Notes under the pieces: model-generated
Told to the model about the DNA's origin: nothing
What the model saw: the letters and a program-made list of their open reading frames with translations, nothing else
Database searches by the model: none
Shown: in pieces, positions 14,077 to 64,000 of the stretch
How the letters are laid out: every line of letters starts with the position of its first letter
How positions within the stretch are numbered: position 1 is the first letter of the stretch
Program-made: the position numbers and the translations under genes
Assembly: GCA_964406075.1 (NCBI GenBank)
Contig: CAYOQI010000004.1
Location: forward strand, 57,718-121,717
Reading direction: 5' to 3'
Source: an uncultured Pseudomonadales bacterium
GTDB taxonomy: Bacteria > Patescibacteriota > Microgenomatia > UBA1400 > PJMF01
DNA: 64,000 bases

Positions 14077-14133
14077 GTACGTATTTAGTGTACATGAGGA
14101 CTGTGAGGAAGAAAAGAAAGTGTGCCCCCACCG

Positions 14134-14162
14134 GGAACCTGCCTGCCGGCAGGCAGGTCGAA
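14134..14162. repeat. GC-rich perfect palindrome (ggaaCCTGCCTGCCGGCAGGCAGGtcgaa) immediately 3' of tRNA-Arg. A second copy lies at 62365-62397.
   Basis: The 20-nt core CCTGCCTGCCGGCAGGCAGG is self-complementary. It appears twice in the window, both times just downstream of a minus-strand tRNA gene. Confidence 0.6.
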
Positions 14163-14189
14163 ATTTGGATTTAGGGTTTAGGAAATTAG

Positions 14190-14261
14190 TGCCGATACCG
14201 GGAGTCGAACCTGGATTTAAGGTTTAGGAAACCTCCGTTCTATCCATTGAACTATATCGGC
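14190..14261 (-). tRNA. tRNA-Arg (anticodon CCT).
   Basis: Manual fold: acceptor GCCGATA/TATCGGC, D-arm GTTC-AATGGATA-GAAC, anticodon arm GAGGT-TTCCTAA-ACCTT, T-arm CCAGG-TTCGACT-CCCGG (one A-C mismatch). 72 nt, CCA not encoded. Confidence 0.7.
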
Positions 14262-14343
14262 TATGAGTATAAAAAATTGTCATCCATAGGCTGCCTGCCC
14301 GCCTTTGGAGGGATCGCCTTTGGCGGAAACTATGGGAGCAGTG

Positions 14344-52447: not shown

Positions 52448-55400
52448 ATGTTCTCATTTCGTCGTCGCCCACTATCTTCCGTATCTAGAAAACGCTCACC
52501 GAAGGTAGTTGTTCTCTTATTGTTGTTAACACTGCTTTTACTCCCAATCGTCTACAGCCTCATTACACGTCCCAATCAAGGAACAGCTGCACCACTCAAC
52601 GCGACTGAAGATTCTACTTCCATCACAATTACATCCCCAGGAAAATATCGAGCAGTGATCCAAAAAGGCGATACCACAGATTACATTCTTTTTTATGATC
52701 TAGCTGAAGATGCCGGTAACCCTGATCCGACACATGAGTTTAAGGGCCCGTGTGTTTTGGAAACAAACACGTATTGCCTGCGAGATGATAGTAACCGAAT
52801 GACAACACTGATTGAGGTGACAGACACCGTTGTGAAAGTTCGGGTCATGGGCAGATTCAATAACGAAGCCAGTACTGATTATCTTGATGATGATACGCCA
52901 CTCTATTTCCCTGAAGTGATCGAAAACTATGCGTTCACTCGTGATGGAGTAAGTGTCATGAACCGTACGGACTTCGCTACGGGAACTGGTGTCACTTTTG
53001 ATGCAGATTCTGGGCACAACGGATATGACTGGCTCGGTGTGTACTCAGATGTCACCGATGGTGCATACGATGACACCGCCAATAATAACTATGGTGATGG
53101 TGCGACTGAGGCTCAAATATCCGCCGATGGAGAGTTTTCTAATACCAATAGTTACTTTCACATGCCTGGAACTGGGAGCTCTACCTACCAAGACGCCTTT
53201 GTCGGTATACATCGAGATGGTTGGTATAGCGATTTAAACTCCAGTGGTGTCCATGAGTGGAATTGGGATGAGGCTGAATCAGGTACGCAGGATTTAATCA
53301 CAGCACAAGAGCAAAACTACAACTCCAGCAGACGTCATGAGGCCAAATGGTATTTCCTCCTGAAAAGTGAATCAGATCTTGATACTGAAGCCGAACGAGA
53401 AGCTTTGAACAATGAAATGATCAATGCCGATATACTCTCCTACACCGTAGGTGAAACGTCCTACGAGATGCCGGTGACTGCAACTGCAATCAATTTTGAT
53501 GCGGATACTGATTACGTCAACGTGCCTGACAACTCAGCCTATGATTTTGGTGATACAGCAGACTACTCTGTTGAAGCGTGGATGATGAGAAATGGAAACC
53601 CTATTTCAGGTGATAACCCCATTGTCTCAAAACGGCTCTGTTGTGGTGCTTCCGGCTGGGAATTCCAGATTCGACTTTCAAGCGCACGAATGCGTTTGCA
53701 AATGACTGATGGAACAGATACGTATGATCTTGAAGGCAGTACGGTTCTTAGTGACCAAACTTGGTACCACGTTGCAGCCGTGTTTGATCAAGACAACGCC
53801 AGCAATAGCATTATCTATATAAACGGTGTTGCAGAAACGATGACTCGGACAGGGACTATTGGAAATTTGGGCAGTATGGCAAGTACCGCTGGACTCGGTT
53901 TTGGTGTTGGTGAGCCTGGTATTGGGAACTATAACAGTTTTTCCGGCCGAATAGCTGAAGTACGAATCTGGGATGATGTGCGAACAGCAGCTGAAATTCG
54001 CGAAAACATGTTTCGACAAATTGACCCCGCATCAGCAAACCTAGTGGGATACTGGAAACTGGATGAAGGGACCGGAACTGCAGTACATGATTCCAGTGCA
54101 ACCGGTGCGAATGGAACAATTGTTGGAGGTGCCACTTGGGACTCAGTCAATGAACGTAAGGCCGATCACTTCAATGAATTTGAATTTGCCCACACACTTC
54201 AGTCAACAGCCCAAAATGCGCAGTACGATATTGATGCTGGAGCATCAAATGTCTCAACAACAGCCAATGGTGCTATTTCCGATAACGCGACCACAGTCAC
54301 AGTTACCTCCACGACAGGCTTTGCCTCTTCGGGAATTGCCTACATTGATGGAGATAAGTTTAGCTACACTGGAACCACTGCCACGACATTTACCGGTGTT
54401 CCCTCTTCTGGTGAACACAGCGTAATTGCTCATGTCACAGGAAGTGTGGTCGCTCAGTTCACGCGAAGTAACACCAACTTTAAGGTTGGTGGCTACCAAT
54501 CCACTGAGAAACCTGCGCAAATTACCAAAGAAGGTATCTCGCAAAAAGAAGGGGTCGATTTCTCAGCTTCTGTAAAGCCAGTAACGGATGGCTACTTTGC
54601 CCAAGACTTAAGTTTTTATGCAGACTTTGCAAGTACGACAGTTGACGTTGGTTCAAACTTGACCAATAGCGGATGTACCCTGACACAAGGTGGCAATGAC
54701 TACACTTTAGGATTTATCACCGTATGTGATGGTGGCTCCGATGACATGACATTTACCTCAACAGGCAATATCGACTATGCCAAAGGAGCCCTTGAGTTTT
54801 CGATCGCGGCATTCAGTACCAGTGCTGACAGTACCGAACGTACATACTTTCGCATAACCGATGGCACCGATGAGTTTCGATTTCGCAAAACATCAGGCAA
54901 TACTTTAGAGTTTTTAATTGATGAAGGCGCTTCCACCTATACAGAATCTATCTCAAGTGCAAACTACAGTTGGGGGTTTTTGGACACTGTTCACATTCGA
55001 CTGGAATGGGATGACAGTGCCTCTACCACAGAAGATGAAATGAAAATTTACATCAATGGAAGATTACCGACCTCCACAGATGCGAGTGGTTTTACCGGTG
55101 CAAATGTGTCTCCTGGTACCACCTTCCGTTTAGGAAATAGTGCAGACTCTGGAGGTACGCACTGTAACTGCTTGATCGATGAATTCAAAATCTATGACTT
55201 CAACGGCAGTGGTGATCAAGTTGGACTGGCCAAGGTTGGAGCCGGTGGTGGAGGTGGTGATTATTTCTATAACCCAAATAATAATCTGACGCTTTCTTTT
55301 GCTCCGGTGGACGCTGGTAATCGAGGTGAGTATCTCTACTTAGGCGCTGATGCCAAAGTCAATGGATATAACTTTGATCTTGCTACCAATGGTGTTGGAA

Positions 55401-58400
55401 GTTCCTTAAATCTTGATTGGGAATACTGGAATGGTGTCGCTTGGACAAGCTTAGAATCCATTGTTGGCTTTACAGATACGACAAGTAACTTAACCCAAAG
55501 TGGCACCGTGTATTGGACTGCTCCACCGACCAACTGGAGACCATATGCGATGAACAGCAAAAATGAGTTCTACTATATTCGAGCTTCCTTAAATGCAGCA
55601 TCTGGTACGTACACCACAAGTCCTGTCGAAAATAGAATCACCACAACAACTCTCTACATTCGAAGCGACACGACACTTAATCTTGAAGATCAAACGTTTG
55701 TCATTCCCACCCAATTCCAACCATCTGTTTTCTGGAAAATGGATGAAGGTCAAGGAACAGCAATCAATGATAGTACTGGGAATAAAAACGACGGAACACG
55801 CCTCAATGCGGTGTGGCAAACGGAAGATATGTGTGTTTCAGGAAAGTGTCTCTATTTTGATGGGAGTGGCAGTCCAAGAGACTATCTGTATAGATTAAAT
55901 GATGACAGTTTCAACTTTACAGCCAGCGAAAGTTTCTCAATAAGTATTTGGATAAAACGTGAACCAATATCTACAGACCCGAATGTGATTCTTGCAAAAC
56001 ATAACTCAAGCGGTGGTGGATATAAAATTCGAATGGAAAATGATGGTGATATCAGTTGTGGAATTGATGATGACAGTACGTACACCCCTGATGCTGAGGC
56101 AATTAGTACGCTCGCCACCTATGATGATAATCAATGGCACCACATCGAGTGTGTCAAAGATGGTACTTCAAGTTTGTCGCTCTATATCGATGGAATACTT
56201 ATTAATACCAACTCCTCTATCTCTGGAGTAGGAAGTCTTGTAAACACGCAACCGTTTTACCTTGGAAATGGCGGTGACGGTTTATCAGATGCATTTAAAG
56301 GCTTCATGGATGAATTCAAAATGTATCCCTATGCTCGAACTGCAGATGAAGTAAAAGCCGACGCTATTGCAGGCGCTGGAAATCGTGGCTCCTCCGCTGT
56401 ACTCGGAGCACAGGACACCGCATTTCTAAATGACGGCTTAGCCGGTTATTGGTCACTCGATGAAGGAACCGCTAACTCTTGTAGTGGAGGAACAAACGAT
56501 AGCTGTGATAAATCTGGCAACAATAATGATGGTGCTTGGCAGGATAATGCCACAAGTACGCGTGGTAAGTTTAGTCGTGGCACAATTTATGATGGAACCA
56601 ATGACAATGTCACCATAACTGATCCAACGTCTGGGACATTAGATTTTGGGACAGGTGATTTTACCGTGTCAACCTGGGTGAACTTCAGTGCTATCGCGAA
56701 TGGAAGTACCCTGCTTGGGAAAAACTTCACTGGTTCGGGAGCCGGGTATGGTATGCGTATACAAACCACTTCCCCGACGATATGGGTGGGAGATGGTGCT
56801 ACTACGGCTGAGCTTGCCCACACGGCAGTACTTTCAAACTCTGCCTGGTATCATGTTGTTGGTGTCAGGAAAAACGGCACATTATATATATACGTGAATG
56901 GTGTACAAGGCTCATCCACTGCATCTTTTACTGGGAATGTGAGTACCACAGGAAATCTGTATTTGGGGGCCAGAGGAACGGGAGCAACAGCAAATATGGC
57001 TGGAAGTTTAGATGAGGTGAGAATATATAATCGGGCCCTTGCTCCTGCAGAAATAACTACTTTATATAACTGGGCACCCGGACCGGTAGGATATTGGAAG
57101 CTGGATGAAAATACGGGTATCAGTGCATATGATTCATCAGGTAATGCTAGCACTGGCACTCTCACAAATAGTCCAACCTGGACACCAGGAAAATTTGGTT
57201 CTGGAGTCAATTTAGGAGGAAATAGTTCCAATCATTATGTGAGCATTGCCGATAATGATCTCTACTCTCCTTCACTCTTTGCAGGAGCTACTATCCAGGC
57301 CTGGTTCAATCAAGACACCGCAACTGCAGCCCGAGACTGGATTGTGGCGAAGGGAAACACAAGTAACTTCGAGTGGGGTCTCGCCGTAAGCAATGGTGTT
57401 CTCTATTGTGAGATCTGGGATTCATCTGGTAGTAGTCAAGCCCAAGTCGTTGCAGGCGTGGTATCCACTGGAGCATGGCACTTCGCCTCTTGCACCATGG
57501 ATAATACCAATGGTGTTTATCTCTATCTTGATGGAGTGTTGCAGGGATCTTCCCCAGGACTTACTGGTGGAATGAGTAATACTACCTCTGCTGTACAAAT
57601 TGGTAATCGTGCCGATGGTGGAGACAATAATTTTGACGGAACTATCGATGAAGTAAAAATCTACAACTATGTTCGTACTCCCGGCCAGATGCTTGAAGAC
57701 ATGAATGGTACTCACCCGGTTGGAGGCTCCCCGGTGGGTTCTCAAATACTTAATTGGAAATTTGATGAGGGCAATGGAACCACAGCAAATAACGAAATAA
57801 CTGGTGGAACAAACGGCACCCTTACCAGTATGGCCACTGCCCCATCGACTTCTTCTTCAGGGTGGACTGCCTCAGGAAAATTTAATAAAGCCTTAGTTTT
57901 TGATGGGACAGACGACAAAGTCGTCATTGACACTGCAAGCGACGCAAATGTGGACTTCAATGCAAGTGAACAGTTTTCTTTGTCGGCCTGGGTGTACTCC
58001 ACCACTGTTCCCACTACTGCAACCGACGAGGATTTAATTATAGGAAAATGGGACGAAACAAGTTCTCAACGTGCATACAGAGTGTTCCTCGAAAATGATG
58101 ATACTGATTCAACAGGTCACATCCGAGTTGAAGTCATGGATGAATCCACCGGAGGAAATGAAATTCTCTCAGCAGTTACGAGTAATGACACTATCTCACA
58201 AAACACTTGGTATCACGTCACCATGACATTTAATGGAACGATCACTGGAGCTGCAAATAGTCTGAAGGTATATCTAGATGGCAAGCAACTTGGTACCAAC
58301 GCAGCGAATGCAAGTTTCGTAGGTATTGATGACGTCACCTCTGATTTCACGGTAGGTGATTATGATGCCACAGACAGTGACGGAGATCTTGATGGCTTTA

Positions 58401-59968
58401 CTGGTCGAATAGATACTGTGCAAGTGTATGGTGCAGAGCTTACAGCAGATCAAGTAAAAATTGTCATGAATGCGAACTCCGGTGTCAACTTCTCTACGGG
58501 TAGAGTTGAAACTGATCAGTCTATTGATGGAACACCATCAAACATAGCTGGATATTGGAATCTGAACGAGAACACAGGGACAACAGTGAATGATACATCT
58601 GGTAATGCAAACGCATTAACGATGAGTGGTGTGTCTGCTAGCTCTTGGGTACCTGCCAAATACGGATCAGGCTTGTACTTCGATGGAGCTGATGATTATC
58701 TCTCTATTGCTGATGATGCTGATTTTGATTTTGCTGCAGTTGATAGTTTTACTATTTCTGCCTGGGCAAAAAACTCTGGCTCACTTGCTTCAAGTCAACA
58801 TATTTTCGTCAAAGGTGACACCACTGATGGGGGCTGGAAACTCTACTTAAATACTGCCGGAAATTACTGTGTCCATTTTGCAGACAACATTAATAATGCC
58901 CCGACTGACTCAGCGTGTTCTTCATCAGGAGGATATGACTACAATGACAATCAATGGCATCACATTACTGCAGTGAAAGTAGCTAACTCTGAACTGCATC
59001 TCTATATTGATGGTGTGCTGGTAGCCTCTGATACAGCATTTTCATACTCCGGAACACTTGCAAACACTGGATCCTTATTGGTGGGCATAGGACAAAGTAC
59101 TACTACAGAAGAATTCACAGGTATCTTGGATGAATTAAAAATTTCGAGAACACCACTTACTGCCTCCCAAGTAGCTTTTGAATACAATCGTGGCCGTTCA
59201 CTAGCCTGGTGGAAATTTGATGACTGTACTGGAACTACTGCATACAATGCTGCCCAAAACGGTAACGGCGATGCGATTGGAAGTAATGGCACCATTACCA
59301 TAGGTGCAACCGGTTCCAACACATCCGCAGGTTCTTGTAATGTCGTGAACACCGCCACAGCTTGGTACAACGGGTTGGTCGGTAAATTTAATAACTCCAT
59401 TGATTTCGATGGCACTGATGATTATGTTTCTGTCGCAGATACAGAGATACTTCGACCAGAGGCAGGTAGCTGGTCCGTATCCTTGTGGGCAAACCCTGCA
59501 AATATCAATCAAAATTCTCCACTTATTACCAAGCGCCTAAACAGTGGGAATTTTGAACAATGGTCACTCTATATCTGTGGAAACATTGGATGTAGTACCG
59601 ATGGACAGCAAGTGCGCTTTGCTTTTGTTGAGGCCGATGGAACTACTGATCGCAAAGCACTCAGCACTCTAGACGTTGTTGATGGCAACTGGCATCATTA
59701 CGTGGGCATAGCCAGTAAAGACGATGACTCCATTATTTTATACAGGGACACAATAGAGCTAACTTCAACTTCTACAACAAATGGTTCCTGGCCTACTGTC
59801 AATAATACTGATCCTGTCCGCATCGCAAACGACAATGGAAGTGTTTACTATAATGGTCAAATTGATGATGTGCAGGTTTTTAACTATACTTTGTCTCAGG
59901 AACAAGTTAAAAAATTGTATAATGAAGGCTCTAGTGCTCGGTTTGGACCAGAAAGTGGAACTCCTTAA
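52448..59968 (+). CDS. Giant (2506 aa) secreted multi-LamG (concanavalin A-like lectin/glucanase, Laminin_G_3-type) domain protein with an N-terminal signal anchor.
   Basis: N-terminal RKRSPKVVVLLLLLTLLLLPIVYSL. At least 8 repeats of the LamG_3 signature: [LV]xGYWKLDEGTGTxxxDSSGNxNxGT, then FDGxDDYVxI, then F[ST][IV]SAW, then W[HY]H[VI], then LY[IL]DGxL, then (E/D)[VE][KR]IYxxxLTxxQV. They start at about aa 370, 520, 1090, 1300, 1500, 1720, 1960 and 2230. Confidence 0.85.
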   Translation: MFSFRRRPLSSVSRKRSPKVVVLLLLLTLLLLPIVYSLITRPNQGTAAPLNATEDSTSITITSPGKYRAVIQKGDTTDYILFYDLAEDAGNPDPTHEFKGPCVLETNTYCLRDDSNRMTTLIEVTDTVVKVRVMGRFNNEASTDYLDDDTPLYFPEVIENYAFTRDGVSVMNRTDFATGTGVTFDADSGHNGYDWLGVYSDVTDGAYDDTANNNYGDGATEAQISADGEFSNTNSYFHMPGTGSSTYQDAFVGIHRDGWYSDLNSSGVHEWNWDEAESGTQDLITAQEQNYNSSRRHEAKWYFLLKSESDLDTEAEREALNNEMINADILSYTVGETSYEMPVTATAINFDADTDYVNVPDNSAYDFGDTADYSVEAWMMRNGNPISGDNPIVSKRLCCGASGWEFQIRLSSARMRLQMTDGTDTYDLEGSTVLSDQTWYHVAAVFDQDNASNSIIYINGVAETMTRTGTIGNLGSMASTAGLGFGVGEPGIGNYNSFSGRIAEVRIWDDVRTAAEIRENMFRQIDPASANLVGYWKLDEGTGTAVHDSSATGANGTIVGGATWDSVNERKADHFNEFEFAHTLQSTAQNAQYDIDAGASNVSTTANGAISDNATTVTVTSTTGFASSGIAYIDGDKFSYTGTTATTFTGVPSSGEHSVIAHVTGSVVAQFTRSNTNFKVGGYQSTEKPAQITKEGISQKEGVDFSASVKPVTDGYFAQDLSFYADFASTTVDVGSNLTNSGCTLTQGGNDYTLGFITVCDGGSDDMTFTSTGNIDYAKGALEFSIAAFSTSADSTERTYFRITDGTDEFRFRKTSGNTLEFLIDEGASTYTESISSANYSWGFLDTVHIRLEWDDSASTTEDEMKIYINGRLPTSTDASGFTGANVSPGTTFRLGNSADSGGTHCNCLIDEFKIYDFNGSGDQVGLAKVGAGGGGGDYFYNPNNNLTLSFAPVDAGNRGEYLYLGADAKVNGYNFDLATNGVGSSLNLDWEYWNGVAWTSLESIVGFTDTTSNLTQSGTVYWTAPPTNWRPYAMNSKNEFYYIRASLNAASGTYTTSPVENRITTTTLYIRSDTTLNLEDQTFVIPTQFQPSVFWKMDEGQGTAINDSTGNKNDGTRLNAVWQTEDMCVSGKCLYFDGSGSPRDYLYRLNDDSFNFTASESFSISIWIKREPISTDPNVILAKHNSSGGGYKIRMENDGDISCGIDDDSTYTPDAEAISTLATYDDNQWHHIECVKDGTSSLSLYIDGILINTNSSISGVGSLVNTQPFYLGNGGDGLSDAFKGFMDEFKMYPYARTADEVKADAIAGAGNRGSSAVLGAQDTAFLNDGLAGYWSLDEGTANSCSGGTNDSCDKSGNNNDGAWQDNATSTRGKFSRGTIYDGTNDNVTITDPTSGTLDFGTGDFTVSTWVNFSAIANGSTLLGKNFTGSGAGYGMRIQTTSPTIWVGDGATTAELAHTAVLSNSAWYHVVGVRKNGTLYIYVNGVQGSSTASFTGNVSTTGNLYLGARGTGATANMAGSLDEVRIYNRALAPAEITTLYNWAPGPVGYWKLDENTGISAYDSSGNASTGTLTNSPTWTPGKFGSGVNLGGNSSNHYVSIADNDLYSPSLFAGATIQAWFNQDTATAARDWIVAKGNTSNFEWGLAVSNGVLYCEIWDSSGSSQAQVVAGVVSTGAWHFASCTMDNTNGVYLYLDGVLQGSSPGLTGGMSNTTSAVQIGNRADGGDNNFDGTIDEVKIYNYVRTPGQMLEDMNGTHPVGGSPVGSQILNWKFDEGNGTTANNEITGGTNGTLTSMATAPSTSSSGWTASGKFNKALVFDGTDDKVVIDTASDANVDFNASEQFSLSAWVYSTTVPTTATDEDLIIGKWDETSSQRAYRVFLENDDTDSTGHIRVEVMDESTGGNEILSAVTSNDTISQNTWYHVTMTFNGTITGAANSLKVYLDGKQLGTNAANASFVGIDDVTSDFTVGDYDATDSDGDLDGFTGRIDTVQVYGAELTADQVKIVMNANSGVNFSTGRVETDQSIDGTPSNIAGYWNLNENTGTTVNDTSGNANALTMSGVSASSWVPAKYGSGLYFDGADDYLSIADDADFDFAAVDSFTISAWAKNSGSLASSQHIFVKGDTTDGGWKLYLNTAGNYCVHFADNINNAPTDSACSSSGGYDYNDNQWHHITAVKVANSELHLYIDGVLVASDTAFSYSGTLANTGSLLVGIGQSTTTEEFTGILDELKISRTPLTASQVAFEYNRGRSLAWWKFDDCTGTTAYNAAQNGNGDAIGSNGTITIGATGSNTSAGSCNVVNTATAWYNGLVGKFNNSIDFDGTDDYVSVADTEILRPEAGSWSVSLWANPANINQNSPLITKRLNSGNFEQWSLYICGNIGCSTDGQQVRFAFVEADGTTDRKALSTLDVVDGNWHHYVGIASKDDDSIILYRDTIELTSTSTTNGSWPTVNNTDPVRIANDNGSVYYNGQIDDVQVFNYTLSQEQVKKLYNEGSSARFGPESGTP

Positions 59969-60142: not shown

Positions 60143-62296
60143 ATGGCACAACCGTCCACTCGCCCACAATCACTTGATCTCATCATTCCCAAGCTCGTTG
60201 AATATATGCTGTATGGAGCAGTGATTTTAACTCCATTATTCTTTTTACCGTTTCTGCAAAATATTTTTGATACATCAAAGTATGCCCTGCTCTTGATAGT
60301 CACATTGATTTCACTTGGACTTTGGACGGTAAATACGTTGAGACATAAAGTATTACGATTTACTTTTCATCCTTTTACCTTTCCATTAATTCTTTTATCG
60401 TTCAGTATTTTAGTTTCTTCAGTATTGTCACCGGTGTATTTTCTTGAAGATTTTGCGGGAATTTTTGGACTCATCTTTTTCTTAAACTTACTTATTCTGT
60501 TTGGTTCAAGTTTAGTAAAAGTCAAACAAAGTAAAACATTTATTGATATGGCAAGTATTGGGGCCATTTTATTGAGCATCGTTTCTCTTCTCCAGCTCGC
60601 TGGAGTTGGACCAACAGTTGCATTAAATTCTTTACTGACCTTACAGTTTCCAAATACTTTTGCATTCTCTCCCGCTGGATCTCCATTGATTGGTTTATCT
60701 GCATTAGTAACCATCTTGGTACCAATGGTTGTGATGTTGGTTACTAATAAAGCATGGAAAGAAAAAATTCCGACAATGGTAGCTACTGCTATCGTCGCGA
60801 TCGGAGTACTTCTTCATGTCGGAGTAATGGTTGCAAAGCCTGAATTTCGACCTAACCTGCTTCCTTTATCAGCAAACTGGTTAATCTCCGTAGAAATTTT
60901 GAAGAACCTCCCCAGAGCCCTTTTTGGAGTTGGTCCTCAAAATTTTATGGATGCGTATGCTCAATTTCGACCAGTGAGCTTAAACAGTAATGACACATGG
61001 CAACTACTCTATCAATCAGGATCAAACACTCCATTCTTTATTTGGGTCAGTGTCGGGACTGTGGGATTGATTGCTTGGATCTTACTTTTTATTCAAAGTT
61101 TACTATTGCTCAAATCATCTCCAATATCCGCTCGCCCAGTTGGAATCATGGTCGTCACTGCTTTTATTATCGAGTTATTTATTCCGTTTAATATTGTCCT
61201 TGTCGCTCTACAAGCACTGGGTATGTTGTTCTGGATCGCGACACTCAGAGCTGAGCATCATCCCAAAAGTTCAGATATTGTCGTTAGCTTAAATGCCTTA
61301 AAAGTTACTCGCCCTGAAGACTACCCAACAGAAAAGAGAATGGGATCTTTGACATACATCACCACATTTTTTGTTCTGGTTGTAATCGCAGTCAGTACGT
61401 ACGGTCTCTTTAGAGTTATGGCCGGAGAGTTTTTCTTCTTCCAATCACTCCAAGCTGCTCAAGCTAGCGATGTCAAAAAACTGTATGAGATTCAACAAAA
61501 AGCCATTCAATACAATCCATATCGAGATATTTATCGCAGAACCTATGCCCAAACCAACTTTGCAGTGGCATTAAATTTGGCTCAAAAAGAAGGTATTACC
61601 GAAGAAGAAAAAGCCACACTTTCTAAATTACTTCAGCAAGCAATTCGAGAGGCTCGTATTGCCGCAAGTTTGAACCCTGCTCGCTCAGTCAATTGGAGAG
61701 TTTTAGGTGATATTTATCGAGGATTAATTGGTTCAACCAAGAATGCCGAACAGTGGTCAGTCGCATCATATGTCCAAGCCGTTCAAACTCATCCCAATGA
61801 CCCAACGTTGCGTGTTGATCTAGGTGGAATTTTCTTGAGAACCAAAAACCCTGATCAAGCAGCTCAATTGTTCCAACAAGCAGCACAGCTCAAACCAGAT
61901 TACGCCAATGCCTACTACAACTGGGCCCAAGCATTAATTTTACTCAATCGACCAGATACAGCTGTCTTAGCGTATGAGAAAGTTCTCACCTTACTTAAAC
62001 CTGATTCAGCCGATTACGTCAAAACTCAAAAGGAGTTAGTGGATTTGAGAGAAAAAGCCAAGGCCGCTGCAGCTGCTCAACCAAAACCACCTGCTACTCA
62101 AACCGCAACTGGATCAGCTACGACACCCACACCTCAACCAACACCAAGTAATACTCAACCTGAGGAAGCTGCCTTACCTGAGTCAGTCAAGCCATCACCA
62201 GGTTTGTTAGATCAAGAACCTGAAAATGTCCAGCTCGATCCTAATCAAGCCAGTCAATCAGCCACTCCCCAACCCAATCCAACTGCTGCTCCGTAA
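60143..62296 (+). CDS. Wzy_C-family polytopic membrane protein with a C-terminal TPR repeat domain and a Pro/Thr/Gln-rich tail. Candidate O-antigen ligase or protein O-oligosaccharyltransferase.
   Basis: About 11 TM helices. External loop LFGVGPQNFMDAYAQF matches the Wzy_C GxGxxNF motif. C-terminal TPR-like helices (AAQLFQQAAQLKPDYANAYYNWAQALILLNRPDTAVLAYEKVL) are followed by low complexity (PKPPATQTATGSATTPTPQPTPSNTQPEE). Confidence 0.6.
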   Translation: MAQPSTRPQSLDLIIPKLVEYMLYGAVILTPLFFLPFLQNIFDTSKYALLLIVTLISLGLWTVNTLRHKVLRFTFHPFTFPLILLSFSILVSSVLSPVYFLEDFAGIFGLIFFLNLLILFGSSLVKVKQSKTFIDMASIGAILLSIVSLLQLAGVGPTVALNSLLTLQFPNTFAFSPAGSPLIGLSALVTILVPMVVMLVTNKAWKEKIPTMVATAIVAIGVLLHVGVMVAKPEFRPNLLPLSANWLISVEILKNLPRALFGVGPQNFMDAYAQFRPVSLNSNDTWQLLYQSGSNTPFFIWVSVGTVGLIAWILLFIQSLLLLKSSPISARPVGIMVVTAFIIELFIPFNIVLVALQALGMLFWIATLRAEHHPKSSDIVVSLNALKVTRPEDYPTEKRMGSLTYITTFFVLVVIAVSTYGLFRVMAGEFFFFQSLQAAQASDVKKLYEIQQKAIQYNPYRDIYRRTYAQTNFAVALNLAQKEGITEEEKATLSKLLQQAIREARIAASLNPARSVNWRVLGDIYRGLIGSTKNAEQWSVASYVQAVQTHPNDPTLRVDLGGIFLRTKNPDQAAQLFQQAAQLKPDYANAYYNWAQALILLNRPDTAVLAYEKVLTLLKPDSADYVKTQKELVDLREKAKAAAAAQPKPPATQTATGSATTPTPQPTPSNTQPEEAALPESVKPSPGLLDQEPENVQLDPNQASQSATPQPNPTAAP

Positions 62297-62321
62297 AGAA
62301 AGAATAAATTAAAAATTGAAA

Positions 62322-62352
62322 CAAAAAAGCTGACTAAAAGTCAGCTTTTTTT
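62322..62352 (+). terminator. Rho-independent terminator of the Wzy_C-TPR gene.
   Basis: aaaaaagctgactaaaagtcagcttttttta: stem agctgact/agtcagct followed by a T7 tract. Confidence 0.65.
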
Positions 62353-62364
62353 ATGGTGGACCGT

Positions 62365-62397
62365 GGGGGAACCTGCCTGCCGTCAGGCAGGTCGAAC
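62365..62397. repeat. Second copy of the GC-rich palindromic element (gggggaaCCTGCCTGCCGTCAGGCAGGtcgaac), immediately 3' of tRNA-Ala(CGC).
   Basis: Same core as 14134-14162 with one substitution in the loop. Same position and orientation relative to a minus-strand tRNA. Confidence 0.6.
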
Positions 62398-62405
62398 TCT
62401 CACTG

Positions 62406-62476
62406 TGGACTCACGGGGAATTGAACCCCGAACTATGCAATGCGAATGCATCGGTATACCGTTTACCTATGAGCCC
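62406..62476 (-). tRNA. tRNA-Ala (anticodon CGC) with a G3:U70 pair.
   Basis: Manual fold: acceptor GGGCTCA/TGAGTCC (G3:U70), D-arm GGTA-AACGGTA-TACC, anticodon arm ATGCA-TTCGCAT-TGCAT, T-arm CGGGG-TTCAATT-CCCCG. 71 nt. Confidence 0.8.
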
Positions 62477-62518
62477 GAATGCTATGTACTACCACTATAC
62501 GAACGGCCCTCATTTCAA

Positions 62519-62755
62519 TTAAATCAGTCGCTTATTTCTAAAAGCAAATCCTGCTCCCGTTTTTAAATACTTTTCAAATTCTATTGCGAGTTTTTCTGAA
62601 GCAAAAGCGGAGTAGAAAATTAGTTTACATGGGAGAAAGTTTTTTGTTGCCTTAACTCTTCCCGAGCTATGCTCTTTCAAACGAGTTTTCAAATCAGAAG
62701 AATAACCAGTATATATTGTGTTATTTATTAGCTGAAGAAGATATGTGTAATACAC
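62519..62755 (-). CDS. Small GIY-YIG nuclease superfamily protein (UPF0213/YhbQ-like, 78 aa).
   Basis: MYYTYLLQLINNTIYTGYSSDLKTRLKEHSSGR..ATKNFLPCKLIFYSAFASEKLAIEFEKYLK has the GIY..YIG spacing with conserved Arg and Glu, as in YhbQ-type proteins. Confidence 0.6.
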   Translation of the reverse strand: MYYTYLLQLINNTIYTGYSSDLKTRLKEHSSGRVKATKNFLPCKLIFYSAFASEKLAIEFEKYLKTGAGFAFRNKRLI

Positions 62756-62878
62756 TTGAACCTTAAAGTCCTACTTCGCTAAAGCTACGCGGGACACACT
62801 TCGCATGACTTAAAATATCTCTTACTATAAAAAGTGGCCTGCCACACGAAGCTCTGAGTGATAACGAAGAGCGAAGTG

Positions 62879-62949
62879 TGGACCCGAGGGGAATCGAACC
62901 CCTTTCTATTCCATGCCATGGAAGTATACTACCGGTGTACTACGGGCCC
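62879..62949 (-). tRNA. tRNA-Ala (probable anticodon GGC) with a G3:U70 pair.
   Basis: Manual fold: acceptor GGGCCCG/CGGGTCC (G3:U70), D-arm GTAC-ACCGGTA-GTAT, anticodon arm CTTCC-ATGGCAT-GGAAT (one mismatch, A at position 32), T-arm AGGGG-TTCGATT-CCCCT. 71 nt. Confidence 0.6.
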
Positions 62950-63070
62950 CTAAAATAACTTTTCAACTTCTCCTCCCTGATGTATCGGGGAGAAAGCTGA
63001 GTTCTGTCATAACAGAACCAGCAGGTGGGGGTTTCAATTAAATCAATCTCAGAATTTTAACATACGCTTC

Positions 63071-64000
63071 TCAAGTTGAAAGGATTTGTTCCAAGCCTTG
63101 TTTGACTTGTTCAATTCCCTGTTGAGTGGCACCACTCCAAAATACAAGATTTTTCTTTTCTTTTTTAAATTTTGCCTCGACTTTTTTCTGAAGATCAGGT
63201 GAGTACAAATCAATTTTATTGATACTGATCAAAGACGGTAGGTTAACTAGATCTGGATTGTAATTCTTCAGTTCATCGAGCAACTTGTGATAATCATCAA
63301 AAATCTGTTGAGCCTGATCAGCTACTGATGCATCGAGATCTTGAACGAACAGGACATATAACAACACTCTACAACGCTCAACGTGACGAAGGAATTGAAT
63401 TCCTAATCCCTTGCCTTCACTTGCTCCTTCAATCAAGCCTGGAATATCTGCGATCACTACTTCTTTCCCATATAAAGAAAGCACACCTAAATTAGGAGAT
63501 AGGGTTGTAAAAGGATAATTCGCTATTTTTGGATTAGCTCGAGTGACAAGAGAAAGAAAAGTTGATTTCCCGGCATTGGGAAATCCAACTAAACCAACAT
63601 CAGCTAGAAGTTTTAACTCGAAATATACTTCGAGACTTTTACCTGGAGTACCTTTTTGAGCATACATTGGTGTAGTGTTGGTAGAGCTTTTGAAACGATC
63701 ATTCCCTTTTCCGCCATGCCCACCTTTAGCAACTAACTCTTCTTGACCATCAGCTAAAATTTCGACCACTTTTGTCTTTTGAATATCTTTGAGTCGAATA
63801 TCTTTCAGTTCTTTCTGGCGGGAAATAAACACTTCTTCAATATCATCCACTTCATCCTGCTTTAAATTTGCTTGAACTTTCTTTTTTGAATCCGAAACTT
63901 CGGATTGCATCTCCCAGACTACAGTACCAATTGGTACATCAATATACAGATCTTCACCTTTTTTTCCAAAGCTTTTATCTTTCCCACCCACTTGGCCATT
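63071..64000 (-). CDS. obg: GTPase Obg. The N-terminus is truncated by the window edge, so only the C-terminal ~310 aa are present.
   Basis: Gly-rich Obg fold (GGHGGKGNDRF), G1 motif VGLVGFPNAGKSTFLS, and a G3 DIPGLIEGASEGKGLG motif. The ORF runs to the window end. Confidence 0.85.
   Translation of the reverse strand, partial: NGQVGGKDKSFGKKGEDLYIDVPIGTVVWEMQSEVSDSKKKVQANLKQDEVDDIEEVFISRQKELKDIRLKDIQKTKVVEILADGQEELVAKGGHGGKGNDRFKSSTNTTPMYAQKGTPGKSLEVYFELKLLADVGLVGFPNAGKSTFLSLVTRANPKIANYPFTTLSPNLGVLSLYGKEVVIADIPGLIEGASEGKGLGIQFLRHVERCRVLLYVLFVQDLDASVADQAQQIFDDYHKLLDELKNYNPDLVNLPSLISINKIDLYSPDLQKKVEAKFKKEKKNLVFWSGATQQGIEQVKQGLEQILST

What the first reader, a model, noticed from the sequence alone, without database searches (positions are those of the whole stretch)
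62355..62949. Unusual tRNA-Ala locus: two tRNA-Ala genes flank a GIY-YIG ORF; tRNA-Ala(CGC) is nested between tRNA-half-like fragments that could pair as a G3:U70 acceptor ending in ACCA
Reading the minus strand, the region contains in order:
- tRNA-Ala(GGC) at 62879-62949.
- An imperfect ~14-bp inverted repeat, gggacacacttcgc / gcgaagtgtggaccc, which overlaps the tRNA 3' end.
- A 78-aa GIY-YIG family ORF at 62519-62755.
- A 33-nt segment at 62477-62509 that reads like the first third of a tRNA: GGGCCGT-TC-GTAT-AGTGGTA-GTAC-A-TAGCA..
- The complete tRNA-Ala(CGC) at 62406-62476.
- The GC-rich palindrome.
- ACGGTCCACCA at 62355-62365.

The 5' GGGCCGT and the 3' ACGGTCC+ACCA are complementary, with a G3:U70 pair and an encoded CCA-like end. 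So they could form an acceptor-like helix enclosing the whole tRNA/palindrome unit.

Possible explanations: the footprint of a mobile element, with a GIY-YIG nuclease nearby, that inserted into and duplicated part of a tRNA gene; a tRNA-like or tmRNA-like structured RNA; or chance. Both tRNA-Ala genes independently show the Ala identity pair G3:U70, which supports the tRNA calls themselves.
Basis: partly seen in the sequence, partly recalled or inferred. Interest (0 to 1): 0.5.

Follow-up and report, generated by a model that had tools for sequence, protein, structure and literature searches.

The report
Broken tRNA-Ala gene holding its replacement
The two "tRNA halves" are the ends of the genome's original tRNA-Ala(CGC) gene, split by an inserted replacement tRNA-Ala(CGC) gene and a 20-base palindrome, next to a small GIY-YIG nuclease element that sits at the 3' ends of tRNA and tmRNA genes in Patescibacteria.

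Summary
The idea of an extended tRNA-like or tmRNA-like RNA is not supported.

- **What the fragments are.** The closest available relative (L089) has the same gene order, obg, then tRNA-Ala(GGC), then tRNA-Ala(CGC), then a terminator. It has no GIY-YIG gene and its tRNA-Ala(CGC) is intact. That tRNA matches the window's outer fragments at 31/33 and 22/25 bases, including a compensatory change in the acceptor stem. The fragments are therefore the 5' (nt 1-33/34) and 3' (about 49-76) remnants of the resident gene. This explains the G3:U70 pairing and the ACCA end.
- **What disrupted the gene.** A different, complete tRNA-Ala(CGC) sits in the resident anticodon loop, after C34. A 20-bp GC palindrome sits cleanly in the resident T loop, between A58 and T59.
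- **The inverted repeat.** It is helix P1 of a conserved structured leader RNA of about 115 nt. This leader precedes the 78-aa GIY-YIG family in 8 independent loci (14 of 26 pairs covary). In 7 of the 8 it starts right after a tRNA or tmRNA (…CCA|CAC). It has no Rfam match.
- **Two wider points.** A tRNA-Arg(CCT) locus in the same window probably has the same nested layout and carries the same palindrome. The palindrome matches more than 120 metagenome contigs from very different organisms.

How the replacement tRNA got there is unresolved.

The parts
62879..62949 (-). tRNA-Ala(GGC), intact; the encoded CCA seen in the relative is replaced here by CAC
   Evidence: ARAGORN and Rfam RF00005, 53.2 bits. 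It is 71/71 identical to the tRNA-Ala(GGC) of relative L089. The relative reads TCCA-CCA-CGCAG where the window reads TCCA-CAC-TTCGC.
62768..62880 (-). Conserved structured leader RNA of the GIY-YIG element (helices P1-P5).
   Evidence: Covariance model R1 scores 49.2 bits here. In 8 loci, 98.1% of cells are paired, 14 of 26 pairs have compensatory changes and 0 of 500 shuffles reach that. No Rfam family matches.
62519..62755 (-). 78-aa GIY-YIG nuclease-domain ORF (UPF0213-like), catalytic domain only
   Evidence: Pfam PF01541 at 53.8 bits. Conserved residues are retained. PDB 1zg2 (UPF0213 protein BH0048) matches at E=3.6e-7. 202 homologues were found; those that carry a source name are from Patescibacteria.
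62477..62509 (-). 5' remnant (nt 1-33/34: acceptor strand, D arm, 5' strand of the anticodon stem, TTC) of the resident tRNA-Ala(CGC) gene
   Evidence: 31/33 identical to the intact tRNA-Ala(CGC) of relative L089, against 18/33 to the inner tRNA.
62406..62476 (-). Inserted, complete tRNA-Ala(CGC) of a different sequence type, with G3:U70 and no encoded CCA; presumably the functional copy
   Evidence: Rfam 63.7 bits. It matches the relative's gene at only 55 of 74 aligned positions. Its D arm, GGTAAACGGTATACC, resembles those of the tRNA-Ala(CGC) genes of L218 and L015.
62392..62405 (-). Junction CAGT, then the decayed 5' strand of the resident T stem (GAGAG) and the first T-loop bases (TTCGA)
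   Evidence: Sequence read, compared with GAAC GGGGG TTCGA in L089.
62372..62391 (.). 20-bp GC palindrome inserted between A58 and T59 of the resident T loop
   Evidence: Absent from the relative's T loop, which reads TTCGATT. A second copy lies at 14138-14157. The flanked pattern matches more than 120 metagenome contigs and 2 IMG/VR contigs exactly.
62354..62371 (-). 3' remnant of the resident tRNA-Ala(CGC): TT, CCCCC (3' strand of the T stem), ACGGTCC (3' acceptor strand), A73, CCA
   Evidence: With the palindrome removed, the 3' remnant is 22/25 identical to L089. The acceptor change C5/G68 compensates for T5/A68 in L089.
62323..62351 (-). Intrinsic terminator closing the tRNA-Ala unit
   Evidence: 13-bp stem followed by a T run. 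L089 has a terminator-like stem and T run in the same position.
14123..14339 (-). Probable second nested case. In order: resident tRNA-Arg 5' remnant GCTCCCATAGTTT (14327-14339); a 65-nt insert; the intact tRNA-Arg(CCT) (14190-14261); and the resident 3' remnant from the anticodon loop to A73 (14123-14188), with the same palindrome in its T loop (14138-14157).
   Evidence: The 5' acceptor candidate is complementary at 6 of 7 positions to the downstream TGGGGGC and is followed by TAGTT, as in the intact gene. No orthologous locus could be obtained.

Best explanation
The locus is a tRNA-Ala transcription unit of a Patescibacteria (CPR) bacterium. Compared with its nearest available relative, it has been remodelled by three insertions.

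1. **A GIY-YIG element of about 370 bp** replaces the whole 108-bp spacer between tRNA-Ala(GGC) and tRNA-Ala(CGC). It consists of a structured leader RNA of about 115 nt plus a 78-aa GIY-YIG ORF. It starts directly after the discriminator base of the upstream tRNA, so CCA becomes CAC.
2. **A complete tRNA-Ala(CGC) gene of a different sequence type** sits in the anticodon loop of the resident tRNA-Ala(CGC), after C34. About nt 35-48 of the resident gene are lost.
3. **A 20-bp GC palindrome** sits cleanly between A58 and T59 of the resident T loop.

The 'tRNA halves' are the surviving ends of the resident gene. They pair with G3:U70 and end in ACCA because they were once the two strands of the acceptor stem of a working tRNA-Ala with an encoded CCA.

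**Inferred, not shown:**
- The unit is transcribed from the tRNA-Ala(GGC) promoter to the terminator at 62323-62351.
- RNase P and RNase Z release the two intact tRNAs. RNase Z can act because neither carries an encoded CCA.
- The GIY-YIG mRNA is left with a structured 5' end that begins at the RNase Z cut.
- The resident remnants are discarded by-products that are already decaying.
- The order and mechanism of events 2 and 3 are unknown. The most likely route is illegitimate capture of a foreign or paralogous tRNA gene at a break in the resident gene.
For: **Orthology**
- L089's TPR-repeat protein, the gene that flanks the locus on the terminator side, is 66% identical to the window's. L089 has the order obg, tRNA-Ala(GGC), 108-nt spacer, intact tRNA-Ala(CGC), terminator, with no GIY-YIG gene.
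- The tRNA-Ala(GGC) genes are 71/71 identical.
- The outer 5' fragment matches the relative's tRNA-Ala(CGC) at 31/33, against 18/33 for the inner tRNA. The outer 3' fragment, with the palindrome removed, matches at 22/25, against 17/25.
- The acceptor differs by a compensatory pair: CTGT/ACAG in the relative, CCGT/ACGG in the window.

**No extended RNA family**
- ARAGORN and Rfam find only the two plain tRNAs.

**Decay of the resident gene**
- The 5' strand of the T stem reads GAGAG where the relative has GGGGG.

**The GIY-YIG element is a recurrent unit**
- The leader precedes the ORF in the window, L001, L007, L008, L218, L228, L015 and L336. L015 was found de novo by the covariance model, at 45.6 bits.
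- In 7 of these 8 loci a tRNA-Val, tRNA-Ala or tmRNA ends immediately upstream.
- Structure support: 98.1% of cells paired, 14 of 26 pairs compensatory, 0 of 500 shuffles as good, and 31-46% paired when the partners are slid.
- L227 and L228 are 99.95% identical over 1861 nt starting exactly at TCCA|CAC, and unrelated upstream of that point.

**The palindrome is a clean insertion**
- Empty-site comparisons: window against L089, and within L207, L180, L096 and L122.

**Independent assembly**
- L090 is identical to the window over the 2807 bases compared.
Against: - Only one close relative was available, so the ancestral state rests on a single outgroup plus the decay signature.
- The mechanism that placed a whole tRNA gene inside its orthologue is not demonstrated. 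The junctions show at most 1 nt of microhomology and no target duplication.
- A probable second nested locus (tRNA-Arg) in the same 64 kb, and a clear one in L106 (tRNA-Val), suggest a systematic process rather than independent accidents. The three-separate-insertions picture does not explain that.
- Transcription and processing are inferred. No RNA data were available.
- The leader alignment used for the pair counts was trimmed by hand. The structure was derived from six of the eight sequences.
Confidence: 0.85

Rival explanations
1. A single homing or co-conversion event. A GIY-YIG endonuclease like T4 SegB cut the resident tRNA-Ala region. Double-strand-break repair from a foreign donor allele then copied in the nuclease element together with the donor's tRNA-Ala(CGC). 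It ended by illegitimate joining inside the resident gene. This is a rival about mechanism only; it agrees that the fragments are remnants of the resident gene.
For: - The inner tRNA has the D-arm type (GGTAAxxGGTATACC) of the tRNA-Ala(CGC) genes that directly precede GIY-YIG elements in L218 and L015.
- L015 also has tRNA-Ala(CGC), the leader, a GIY-YIG gene and tRNA-Ala(GGC) next to obg.
- More distant small GIY-YIG genes in L207, L180 and L184 are flanked by a broken copy and an intact copy of one tRNA.
- T4 SegB is a GIY-YIG homing endonuclease in a tRNA gene cluster that co-converts flanking tRNA genes (PMC2330249).
Against: - The resident 5' remnant lies between the GIY-YIG ORF and the inner tRNA. 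Simple replacement by a contiguous donor segment does not predict that.
- The upstream tRNA-Ala(GGC) is 71/71 identical to the relative's, so there is no sign of conversion there.
- The 78-aa protein has no DNA-binding domain.
- No donor arrangement of GIY-YIG followed by tRNA-Ala(CGC) was found.
Confidence: 0.2
2. A systematic cycle of attack on tRNA genes and their replacement. The palindrome, a very small mobile element, preferentially lands in T loops and kills the gene. Lineages survive by acquiring a patch or a whole replacement tRNA within or beside the dead gene, or such replacements travel as cassettes. This would make nested or duplicated tRNAs a regular outcome.
For: - Both palindrome copies in the window lie in T loops of broken resident tRNAs that enclose an intact isoacceptor gene.
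- In metagenome loci, 9 of 121 palindromes lie within 200 nt of a tRNA called by ARAGORN, against roughly 2 expected.
- They sit in partial tRNA copies beside an intact copy: L096, L122, L142, L156, L170, L119/L200, and L106, which is nested.
Against: - About 90% of palindrome copies are not near tRNAs, and flanks show no general target motif or hairpin preference.
- The search pattern required GA..TT flanks, which favours T-loop sequences.
- The order of events cannot be told. The palindrome may simply persist in tRNA copies that were already dead.
- No mobilising enzyme was identified.
Confidence: 0.2
3. The outer fragments, inner tRNA and hairpin form a functional composite RNA: a tRNA-like scaffold, a tmRNA-like molecule, or a split or intron-containing tRNA.
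For: - The outer 7-bp helix with G3:U70 is part of the minimum-free-energy fold of 62352-62509 (-56.7 kcal/mol, z = -2.3).
- There is an encoded ACCA end.
Against: - No tRNA, tmRNA or other Rfam model covers the composite, even at E up to 10.
- The outer molecule lacks the 3' half of the anticodon arm and the variable region.
- Its T stem no longer pairs (GAGAG against CCCCC).
- The relative has a plain intact gene.
- RNase P and RNase Z processing of the inner tRNA would cut the composite apart.
Confidence: 0.04
4. Chance similarity or an assembly chimera.
For: Short tRNA-like strings can arise by chance. Metagenome assemblies can collapse or join repeats such as tRNAs.
Against: - 31/33 and 22/25 identity to the syntenic tRNA of a relative.
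- A second assembly is identical over 2807 nt.
- The same architecture occurs in unrelated contigs (L106).
Confidence: 0.01

Closest known systems
Phage T4 SegB and other free-standing GIY-YIG homing endonucleases (Seg family)
   Same: A GIY-YIG nuclease gene lies between tRNA genes and is present or absent between related genomes. SegB homing co-converts neighbouring tRNA genes (PMC2330249) and can amplify tRNA loci (PMC13096335).
   Different: - The protein here is 78 aa, the catalytic domain only, and UPF0213/BH0048-like. It lacks the DNA-binding domains of the Seg and I-TevI proteins.
- The element is chromosomal, in Patescibacteria.
- It always comes with a conserved structured leader RNA.
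- It starts exactly at a tRNA or tmRNA 3' end.
- Cleavage activity and homing were not tested.
Integrative elements that target tRNA and tmRNA genes, leaving attL/attR partial tRNA duplications (own knowledge: Williams 2002, Nucleic Acids Res)
   Same: tRNA and tmRNA genes are used as landing sites. Partial tRNA copies lie beside an intact gene, as in L096, L122, L142 and L156.
   Different: - No integrase is present at the locus.
- In the window the fragments are the two complementary ends of one gene, not a duplicated 3' segment.
- The intact gene is not a hybrid of host and element parts.
Small GC-rich palindromic mobile elements: yeast mitochondrial GC clusters, Rickettsia palindromic elements, REP/MITE-like repeats (own knowledge)
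   Same: A short GC-rich palindrome is scattered through AT-rich genomes and inserted into RNA genes. Some copies continue the reading frame of a long ORF, for example the pyrG-like ORF in L181.
   Different: - It is only 20 bp.
- The identical sequence occurs in contigs whose GC content ranges from below 30% to above 70%.
- There is usually no target duplication. A 7-bp direct repeat is seen only in heptamer repeat tracts.
- No paper in the searchable library contains the sequence.
HEARO / IscB omega RNA: a nuclease-associated structured RNA next to its ORF (own knowledge; review PMC13565253)
   Same: A small mobile-element nuclease gene is preceded by a conserved structured non-coding RNA.
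   Different: - There is no evidence here for a guide function.
- The nuclease fold differs (GIY-YIG, not HNH/RuvC).
- The RNA is much shorter and is fused to a tRNA 3' end.
- This is an analogy only.
Archaeal split, permuted or intron-containing tRNA genes (own knowledge)
   Same: tRNA 5' and 3' parts are separated by intervening sequence and can pair through the acceptor stem.
   Different: - The outer gene lacks nt 35-48.
- There is no bulge-helix-bulge motif.
- The organism is a bacterium.
- The relative has an uninterrupted gene.

Membership tests
tRNA (Rfam RF00005), for the composite 62354-62509 | Cloverleaf with all four arms, scored by the covariance model | tested here: not met
   Only the inner tRNA (62406-62476) and the GGC tRNA are called. 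Nothing spans the outer fragments, even at E up to 10.
tRNA (Rfam RF00005), for the inner and upstream genes | Score above the gathering threshold, Ala anticodon, G3:U70 | tested here: met
   63.7 and 53.2 bits against a gathering score of 29. Anticodons are CGC and GGC. G3:U70 is visible in the alignments.
tmRNA (RF00023, or permuted tmRNA) | tRNA-like domain plus a tag reading frame and pseudoknots | tested here: not met
   ARAGORN finds no tmRNA in the window. The only Rfam tmRNA-type match in 62250-63050 is a 12.7-bit fragment.
GIY-YIG nuclease superfamily (PF01541; UPF0213-like) | GIY and YIG motifs with the conserved Arg, His, Glu and Asn | tested here: met
   Pfam 53.8 bits. Y3, Y5, Y15, G17, R25, H29, E61 and N74 are retained; each is conserved in 98-100% of the 100 family members aligned. 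PDB 1zg2 matches at E=3.6e-7.
Homing endonuclease gene (Seg-like) | Presence or absence polymorphism at an otherwise conserved locus | tested here: met
   L089 has the same flanking genes and tRNAs but no GIY-YIG element.
Homing endonuclease gene (Seg-like) | Site-specific cleavage of the empty allele, and a DNA-binding domain | tested here: inconclusive
   The ORF is 78 aa and is covered by the catalytic domain alone, so no separate DNA-binding domain is present. Cleavage cannot be tested with these tools.
Integrase-mediated insertion into a tRNA gene | Integrase gene at the site, and a direct repeat of the tRNA 3' segment (attL/attR) | tested here: not met
   There is no integrase-like ORF between obg and the TPR-repeat protein gene. 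The fragments are complementary halves, not direct repeats.
Intron-containing or split tRNA | Both exons together give a complete tRNA, with a defined splice motif | tested here: not met
   Joining the outer fragments leaves about nt 35-48 missing and a T stem that does not pair.
MITE/REP-like repeat (for the 20-bp palindrome) | Many copies, terminal inverted repeats, target-site duplication | tested here: inconclusive
   Copies are many: more than 120 contigs, and up to 5 per locus. The whole element is one perfect inverted repeat. A target duplication of exactly 7 bp occurs in only 9 of 127 copies.

The most novel reading that the evidence does not exclude
The locus may record a regular conflict over tRNA genes in Patescibacteria and other uncultivated bacteria.

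- **Palindrome.** A 20-bp palindrome that is mobile across phyla disables tRNA genes by inserting in their T loops.
- **Replacement.** Complete replacement tRNA genes, or 3' patches, are then installed inside or beside the dead gene.
- **GIY-YIG element.** A minimal GIY-YIG nuclease works together with its conserved leader RNA, possibly as a ribonucleoprotein whose RNA supplies target recognition. This element rides on tRNA and tmRNA 3' ends and takes part in that turnover.
Probability: 0.15. Interest if true: 0.8.

Novelty: new variant of a known kind. Interest (0 to 1): 0.55.

Why it matters
- **Annotation.** tRNA-like 'halves' around a tRNA can be the remains of the orthologous gene. Reading them as exotic RNAs would be a mistake.
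- **Gene turnover.** The locus documents turnover of tRNA genes in a reduced CPR genome. A resident isoacceptor gene was replaced in place by a foreign-type copy.
- **Two untested leads came out of the check:**
  - A conserved, covariation-supported leader RNA is tied to a minimal GIY-YIG nuclease at tRNA and tmRNA 3' ends. It has no Rfam match.
  - An identical 20-bp palindrome is inserted cleanly at many sites in very different metagenomic organisms.

Tried and rejected
- **Synteny through Obg (genome-contig scan).** It did supply L015 by luck.
- **Exact look-up of the GIY-YIG protein.** It is not on record.
- **Orthology for the tRNA-Arg locus through Ndk.** The nearest relatives (91-95% identical) have tRNA-Pro followed directly by a protein gene, or the contig ends there, or there is no tRNA. 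The Arg nesting therefore could not be polarised.
- **BLAST of 62340-62520 against phage genomes.** No match.
- **IMG/VR scan for the inner tRNA type.** No hits.
- **IMG/VR scan for the 14-mer TCCACACTTCGCTC.** It gave 101 hits. The covariance model found no leader in the 100 of those loci that were scanned (882 kb), so they are chance matches.
- **Single-sequence folding of the leader.** It gives a different fold, z = -1.4, in which ACUUCGC pairs with the second GCGAAGU. Covariation in L001 and L015 supports P1 instead.
- **Palindrome as two abutted terminal repeats of a larger element.** Extra half-sites occur near some copies, but no consistent pair carrying cargo was found.
- **General preference of the palindrome for hairpin loops or a target motif.** Not seen.
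- **MAFFT alignment of the full-length leaders.** It misaligned P1, so trimmed sequences of equal length were used for the pair counts.
- **Literature.** Searches for GIY-YIG with tRNA or Patescibacteria, for COG2827 and for the palindrome sequence found nothing describing these features.
Full report
**1. What is in the sequence**

Read on the minus strand, the region between obg (stop at 63071) and a convergent TPR-repeat protein gene (end at 62296) contains, in order:

- tRNA-Ala(GGC), 62879-62949.
- A 123-nt spacer.
- A 78-aa GIY-YIG ORF, 62519-62755.
- Nine bases, then a 33-nt tRNA-like 5' segment, 62477-62509.
- A complete tRNA-Ala(CGC), 62406-62476.
- CAGT GAGAG TTCGA, then the 20-bp palindrome CCTGCCTGACGGCAGGCAGG (62372-62391).
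- TT CCCCC ACGGTCC A CCA, 62354-62371.
- An intrinsic terminator, 62323-62351.

ARAGORN and Rfam call only the two plain tRNAs. A permissive Rfam scan (E up to 10) of 62250-63050 adds nothing credible. Pfam confirms the GIY-YIG domain.

The organism is a Patescibacteria (CPR) bacterium. The source-named hits to three of its proteins are Patescibacteria lineages: Levybacteria, Roizmanbacteria and Gracilibacteria for the GIY-YIG protein, Blackburnbacteria for the TPR-repeat protein, and Woesebacteria and Pacebacteria for Ndk.

**2. The decisive comparison**

The TPR-repeat protein has one moderately close homologue, 66% identical, on a 12-kb contig (L089). That contig has the same gene order: the TPR-repeat protein gene, then on the opposite strand obg, tRNA-Ala(GGC), a 108-nt spacer, tRNA-Ala(CGC) and a terminator. 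It has no GIY-YIG gene.

- Its tRNA-Ala(GGC) is 71/71 identical to the window's.
- Its tRNA-Ala(CGC) is intact: GGGCTGTTCGTATAGTGGTAATACATAGCATTCGCATTGCTAGAACGGGGGTTCGATTCCCCCACAGTCCACCA.
- The window's outer 5' segment matches it at 31 of 33 positions. The inner tRNA matches that segment at only 18 of 33.
- The outer 3' segment, with the palindrome removed, matches at 22 of 25, against 17 of 25 for the inner tRNA.
- The only acceptor difference is a compensatory pair: T5:A68 in the relative, C5:G68 in the window.

The 'halves' are therefore the two ends of the resident, orthologous tRNA-Ala(CGC) gene. Their complementarity, the G3:U70 pair and the encoded CCA are inherited from a once-functional tRNA-Ala.

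The resident gene is now dead. About nt 35-48 are missing. The 5' strand of its T stem has decayed from GGGGG to GAGAG. Its T loop, TTCGA|TT, carries a 20-bp insertion.

A second contig, assembled from a public sequencing run (L090), is identical to the window over 2807 nt that include the whole locus. The arrangement is therefore not an assembly accident.

**3. The inner tRNA**

The inserted gene is a good tRNA-Ala(CGC): 63.7 bits, with G3:U70. It matches the resident type at only 55 of 74 aligned positions. Its acceptor stem and D arm (GGGCTCA, GGTAAACGGTATACC) resemble tRNA-Ala(CGC) genes of other Patescibacteria, namely L218 and L015.

It starts exactly after C34 of the resident anticodon loop. 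Four bases (CAGT) follow it before the resident T arm resumes. The junctions show at most 1 nt of microhomology and no target duplication. I could not establish how it got there.

**4. The inverted repeat and the GIY-YIG gene**

Homologues of the 78-aa protein are numerous (202 hits), and those that carry a source name are from Patescibacteria. Context was recovered for independent loci.

| Locus | What ends immediately upstream |
|---|---|
| window | tRNA-Ala(GGC) |
| L001 | tRNA-Val |
| L007, L008, L228 | tmRNA |
| L218 | tRNA-Ala(CGC) |
| L015 | tRNA-Ala(CGC) |
| L336 | no tRNA; only TCTCCA remains |

- In every case the ORF is preceded by a similar spacer that begins right at that 3' end (…CCA|CAC…).
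- Trimmed to its conserved modules, the spacer folds into five helices, P1 to P5. P5 carries a GUA/GAA internal loop.
- A covariance model built from six loci found two further loci that were not used to build it. L015, next to obg in another Patescibacteria genome, scored 45.6 bits. L336, from Gracilibacteria, scored 32.1 bits.
- The model gave no significant hit in about 1.45 Mb of unrelated loci.
- Over the eight sequences, 98.1% of cells pair and 14 of 26 pairs show compensatory changes. No shuffle in 500 reaches this. Sliding the partners drops pairing to 31-46%.
- G-U pairs indicate an RNA on the sense strand.
- No Rfam family matches it. I found no paper describing it.

In the window the element replaces the relative's spacer completely and changes the upstream tRNA's encoded CCA to CAC.

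Two loci from the same groundwater site (L227, L228) are 99.95% identical over 1861 nt starting exactly at TCCA|CAC. Upstream of that point they are unrelated: L228 has a tmRNA and L227 has no tRNA. This points to recent rearrangement at the element's 5' edge.

In L336 only the relic TCTCCA of a tmRNA-type end remains upstream.

The protein keeps all the conserved GIY-YIG residues. It resembles the UPF0213 protein BH0048, PDB 1zg2. It has no room for a DNA-binding domain.

My functional reading is inference. The element uses the tRNA promoter. RNase Z, which acts on precursors without CCA, cuts after the discriminator base and frees an mRNA whose 5' end is locked in P1. Whether the RNA does more, such as regulation or acting as a partner of the nuclease, is open.

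**5. The palindrome**

- **A second copy in the window.** CCTGCCTGCCGGCAGGCAGG lies at 14138-14157. It is again in the T loop of a tRNA remnant: …TTTCCTAA ACCCT AAAT CCAAA TTTCGA[palindrome]TT CCCGG TGGGGGC A. The remnant begins 4 nt after an intact tRNA-Arg(CCT).
- **Probable nesting at the Arg locus.** Upstream of a 65-nt insert lies GCTCCCA TA GTTT. This is complementary at 6 of 7 positions to the remnant's 3' acceptor strand. The Arg locus is thus probably nested in the same way, but no orthologous locus could be obtained.
- **Spread.** Host GC content ranges from below 30% to above 70%. The centre is CCGG in 109 of 117 distinct copies.
- **Clean insertion.** Empty-site comparisons show a clean 20-bp insertion with no duplication or deletion. 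These are the window against L089, and broken against intact copies within L207, L180, L096 and L122.
- **No general target.** There is no general target motif or hairpin preference.
- **Repeat tracts.** About 10% of copies sit in tandem 7-8-nt repeat tracts, and 9 of 127 are flanked by an exact 7-nt direct repeat.
- **Association with tRNAs.** Nine of 121 copies lie within 200 nt of a tRNA called by ARAGORN, against roughly 2 expected. These sit in partial tRNA copies next to an intact copy of the same isoacceptor. L106 (tRNA-Val) is clearly nested, like the window. The GA..TT flanks required by my pattern favour T-loop sequences, so the size of this enrichment is uncertain.
- **Association with GIY-YIG genes.** In L207, L180 and L184 the palindrome lies in a broken tRNA copy directly beside a small, more distant GIY-YIG gene, which is followed within 2 nt by an intact copy of the same tRNA or, in L184, by a second broken copy.
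- **Inside ORFs.** Some copies continue the reading frame of a long ORF, for example a pyrG-like ORF in L181.
- **Literature.** No paper in the library contains the sequence.

**6. Interpretation**

The best-supported account is that a resident tRNA-Ala(CGC) gene was inactivated and functionally replaced in place, and that a GIY-YIG element occupies the neighbouring spacer. The outer helix is a relic, not a functional structure.

Three things remain open:

- The order of events.
- Whether the GIY-YIG nuclease caused the break, in the manner of T4 SegB (PMC2330249).
- Whether the recurrent trio of broken tRNA, intact isoacceptor and palindrome reflects a systematic process.

**7. Comparison with known systems, and novelty**

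The closest known systems are these:

- The T4 Seg endonucleases in tRNA clusters.
- Integrative elements that target tRNA and tmRNA genes.
- Small GC-rich palindromic elements: yeast mitochondrial GC clusters and Rickettsia palindromic elements.
- As an analogy only, nuclease-associated RNAs such as HEARO / omega RNA.

None fits as a family (see the membership tests). As posed, the finding resolves to a new variant of a known kind: disruption of a tRNA gene by mobile DNA, with a replacement copy. The leader RNA and the palindrome are the parts most worth following up.

Noticed in passing
window 14123-14339 (minus strand): The tRNA-Arg(CCT) at 14190-14261 appears to sit inside the remains of another tRNA-Arg(CCT). 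The 5' remnant GCTCCCATAGTTT follows tRNA-Pro directly. The 3' remnant runs from the anticodon loop to A73 and has the same 20-bp palindrome in its T loop. The 65-nt piece ahead of the intact gene holds a CGCC-AAA-GGCG hairpin and a half-palindrome, GGCAGGCAG.
   Followed up: partly
L091-L212 (metagenome and IMG/VR loci); window 14138-14157 and 62372-62391: The 20-bp palindrome CCTGCCTGCCGGCAGGCAGG is inserted cleanly at many unrelated sites in contigs whose GC ranges from below 30% to above 70%, with up to 5 copies per locus. About 10% of copies lie in 7-8-nt tandem repeat tracts, flanked by an exact 7-nt direct repeat. No mobilising gene was identified and no literature was found.
   Followed up: partly
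L181 near 9394; L172 near 846; L191: Some palindrome copies continue the reading frame of a long ORF. In L181 a pyrG-like ORF reads …NIEK[DLPAGRQV]SERHRHRYEFN…. This recalls Rickettsia palindromic elements inside protein-coding genes.
   Followed up: no
L207 2240-2680; L180 2150-2754 (minus strand); L184 1-560: A more distant family of small GIY-YIG ORFs has no leader RNA. Each ORF is preceded by a broken copy of a tRNA (Leu-CAA or Arg-TCG) that carries the palindrome in its anticodon arm. In L207 and L180 an intact copy of the same tRNA follows within 2 nt of the stop codon. L180 and L184 hold tandem units, and in L184 both tRNA copies are broken.
   Followed up: partly
L227 against L228, position 1395 onward: The two contigs are 99.95% identical for 1861 nt, covering the leader, the GIY-YIG gene and a 544-aa gene. 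Upstream of TCCA|CAC they diverge completely: L228 has SmpB and a tmRNA, and L227 has unrelated sequence with no recognisable tRNA.
   Followed up: partly
L015 5015-5572: Another Patescibacteria genome has tRNA-Ala(CGC), the leader RNA, a GIY-YIG ORF that is inverted and apparently frameshifted, and tRNA-Ala(GGC), all next to obg. This is the same set of parts as in the window, in a different order and orientation.
   Followed up: partly
window 63032-63060 and 62513-62541: A 29-nt direct repeat, 79% identical with a core matching at 16 of 17 bases (GAyTGATTTAATTGAAA), links the sequence just after the obg stop codon with the 3' end of the GIY-YIG ORF. It could be chance (rough estimate p about 0.07) or a trace of recombination.
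   Followed up: no
L156 (minus strand, about 750-1200); L106 4250-4600: Partial tRNA copies carry further GC-rich hairpins besides the 20-bp palindrome, for example CCCGCC-GTG-GCGGG and CCTACC-GCA-GGTAGG. In L156 these hairpins interrupt the anticodon loop after C34, the same position as the break in the window's tRNA-Ala. A motif CCTGCCCGNCTTGC and a TCCGCC-loop-GGCGGA hairpin recur in L106 and at the window's Arg locus.
   Followed up: no
window 52448-59968: A 2506-aa ORF lies just upstream of the TPR-repeat protein gene. Its partial counterpart occupies the same position in L089.
   Followed up: no
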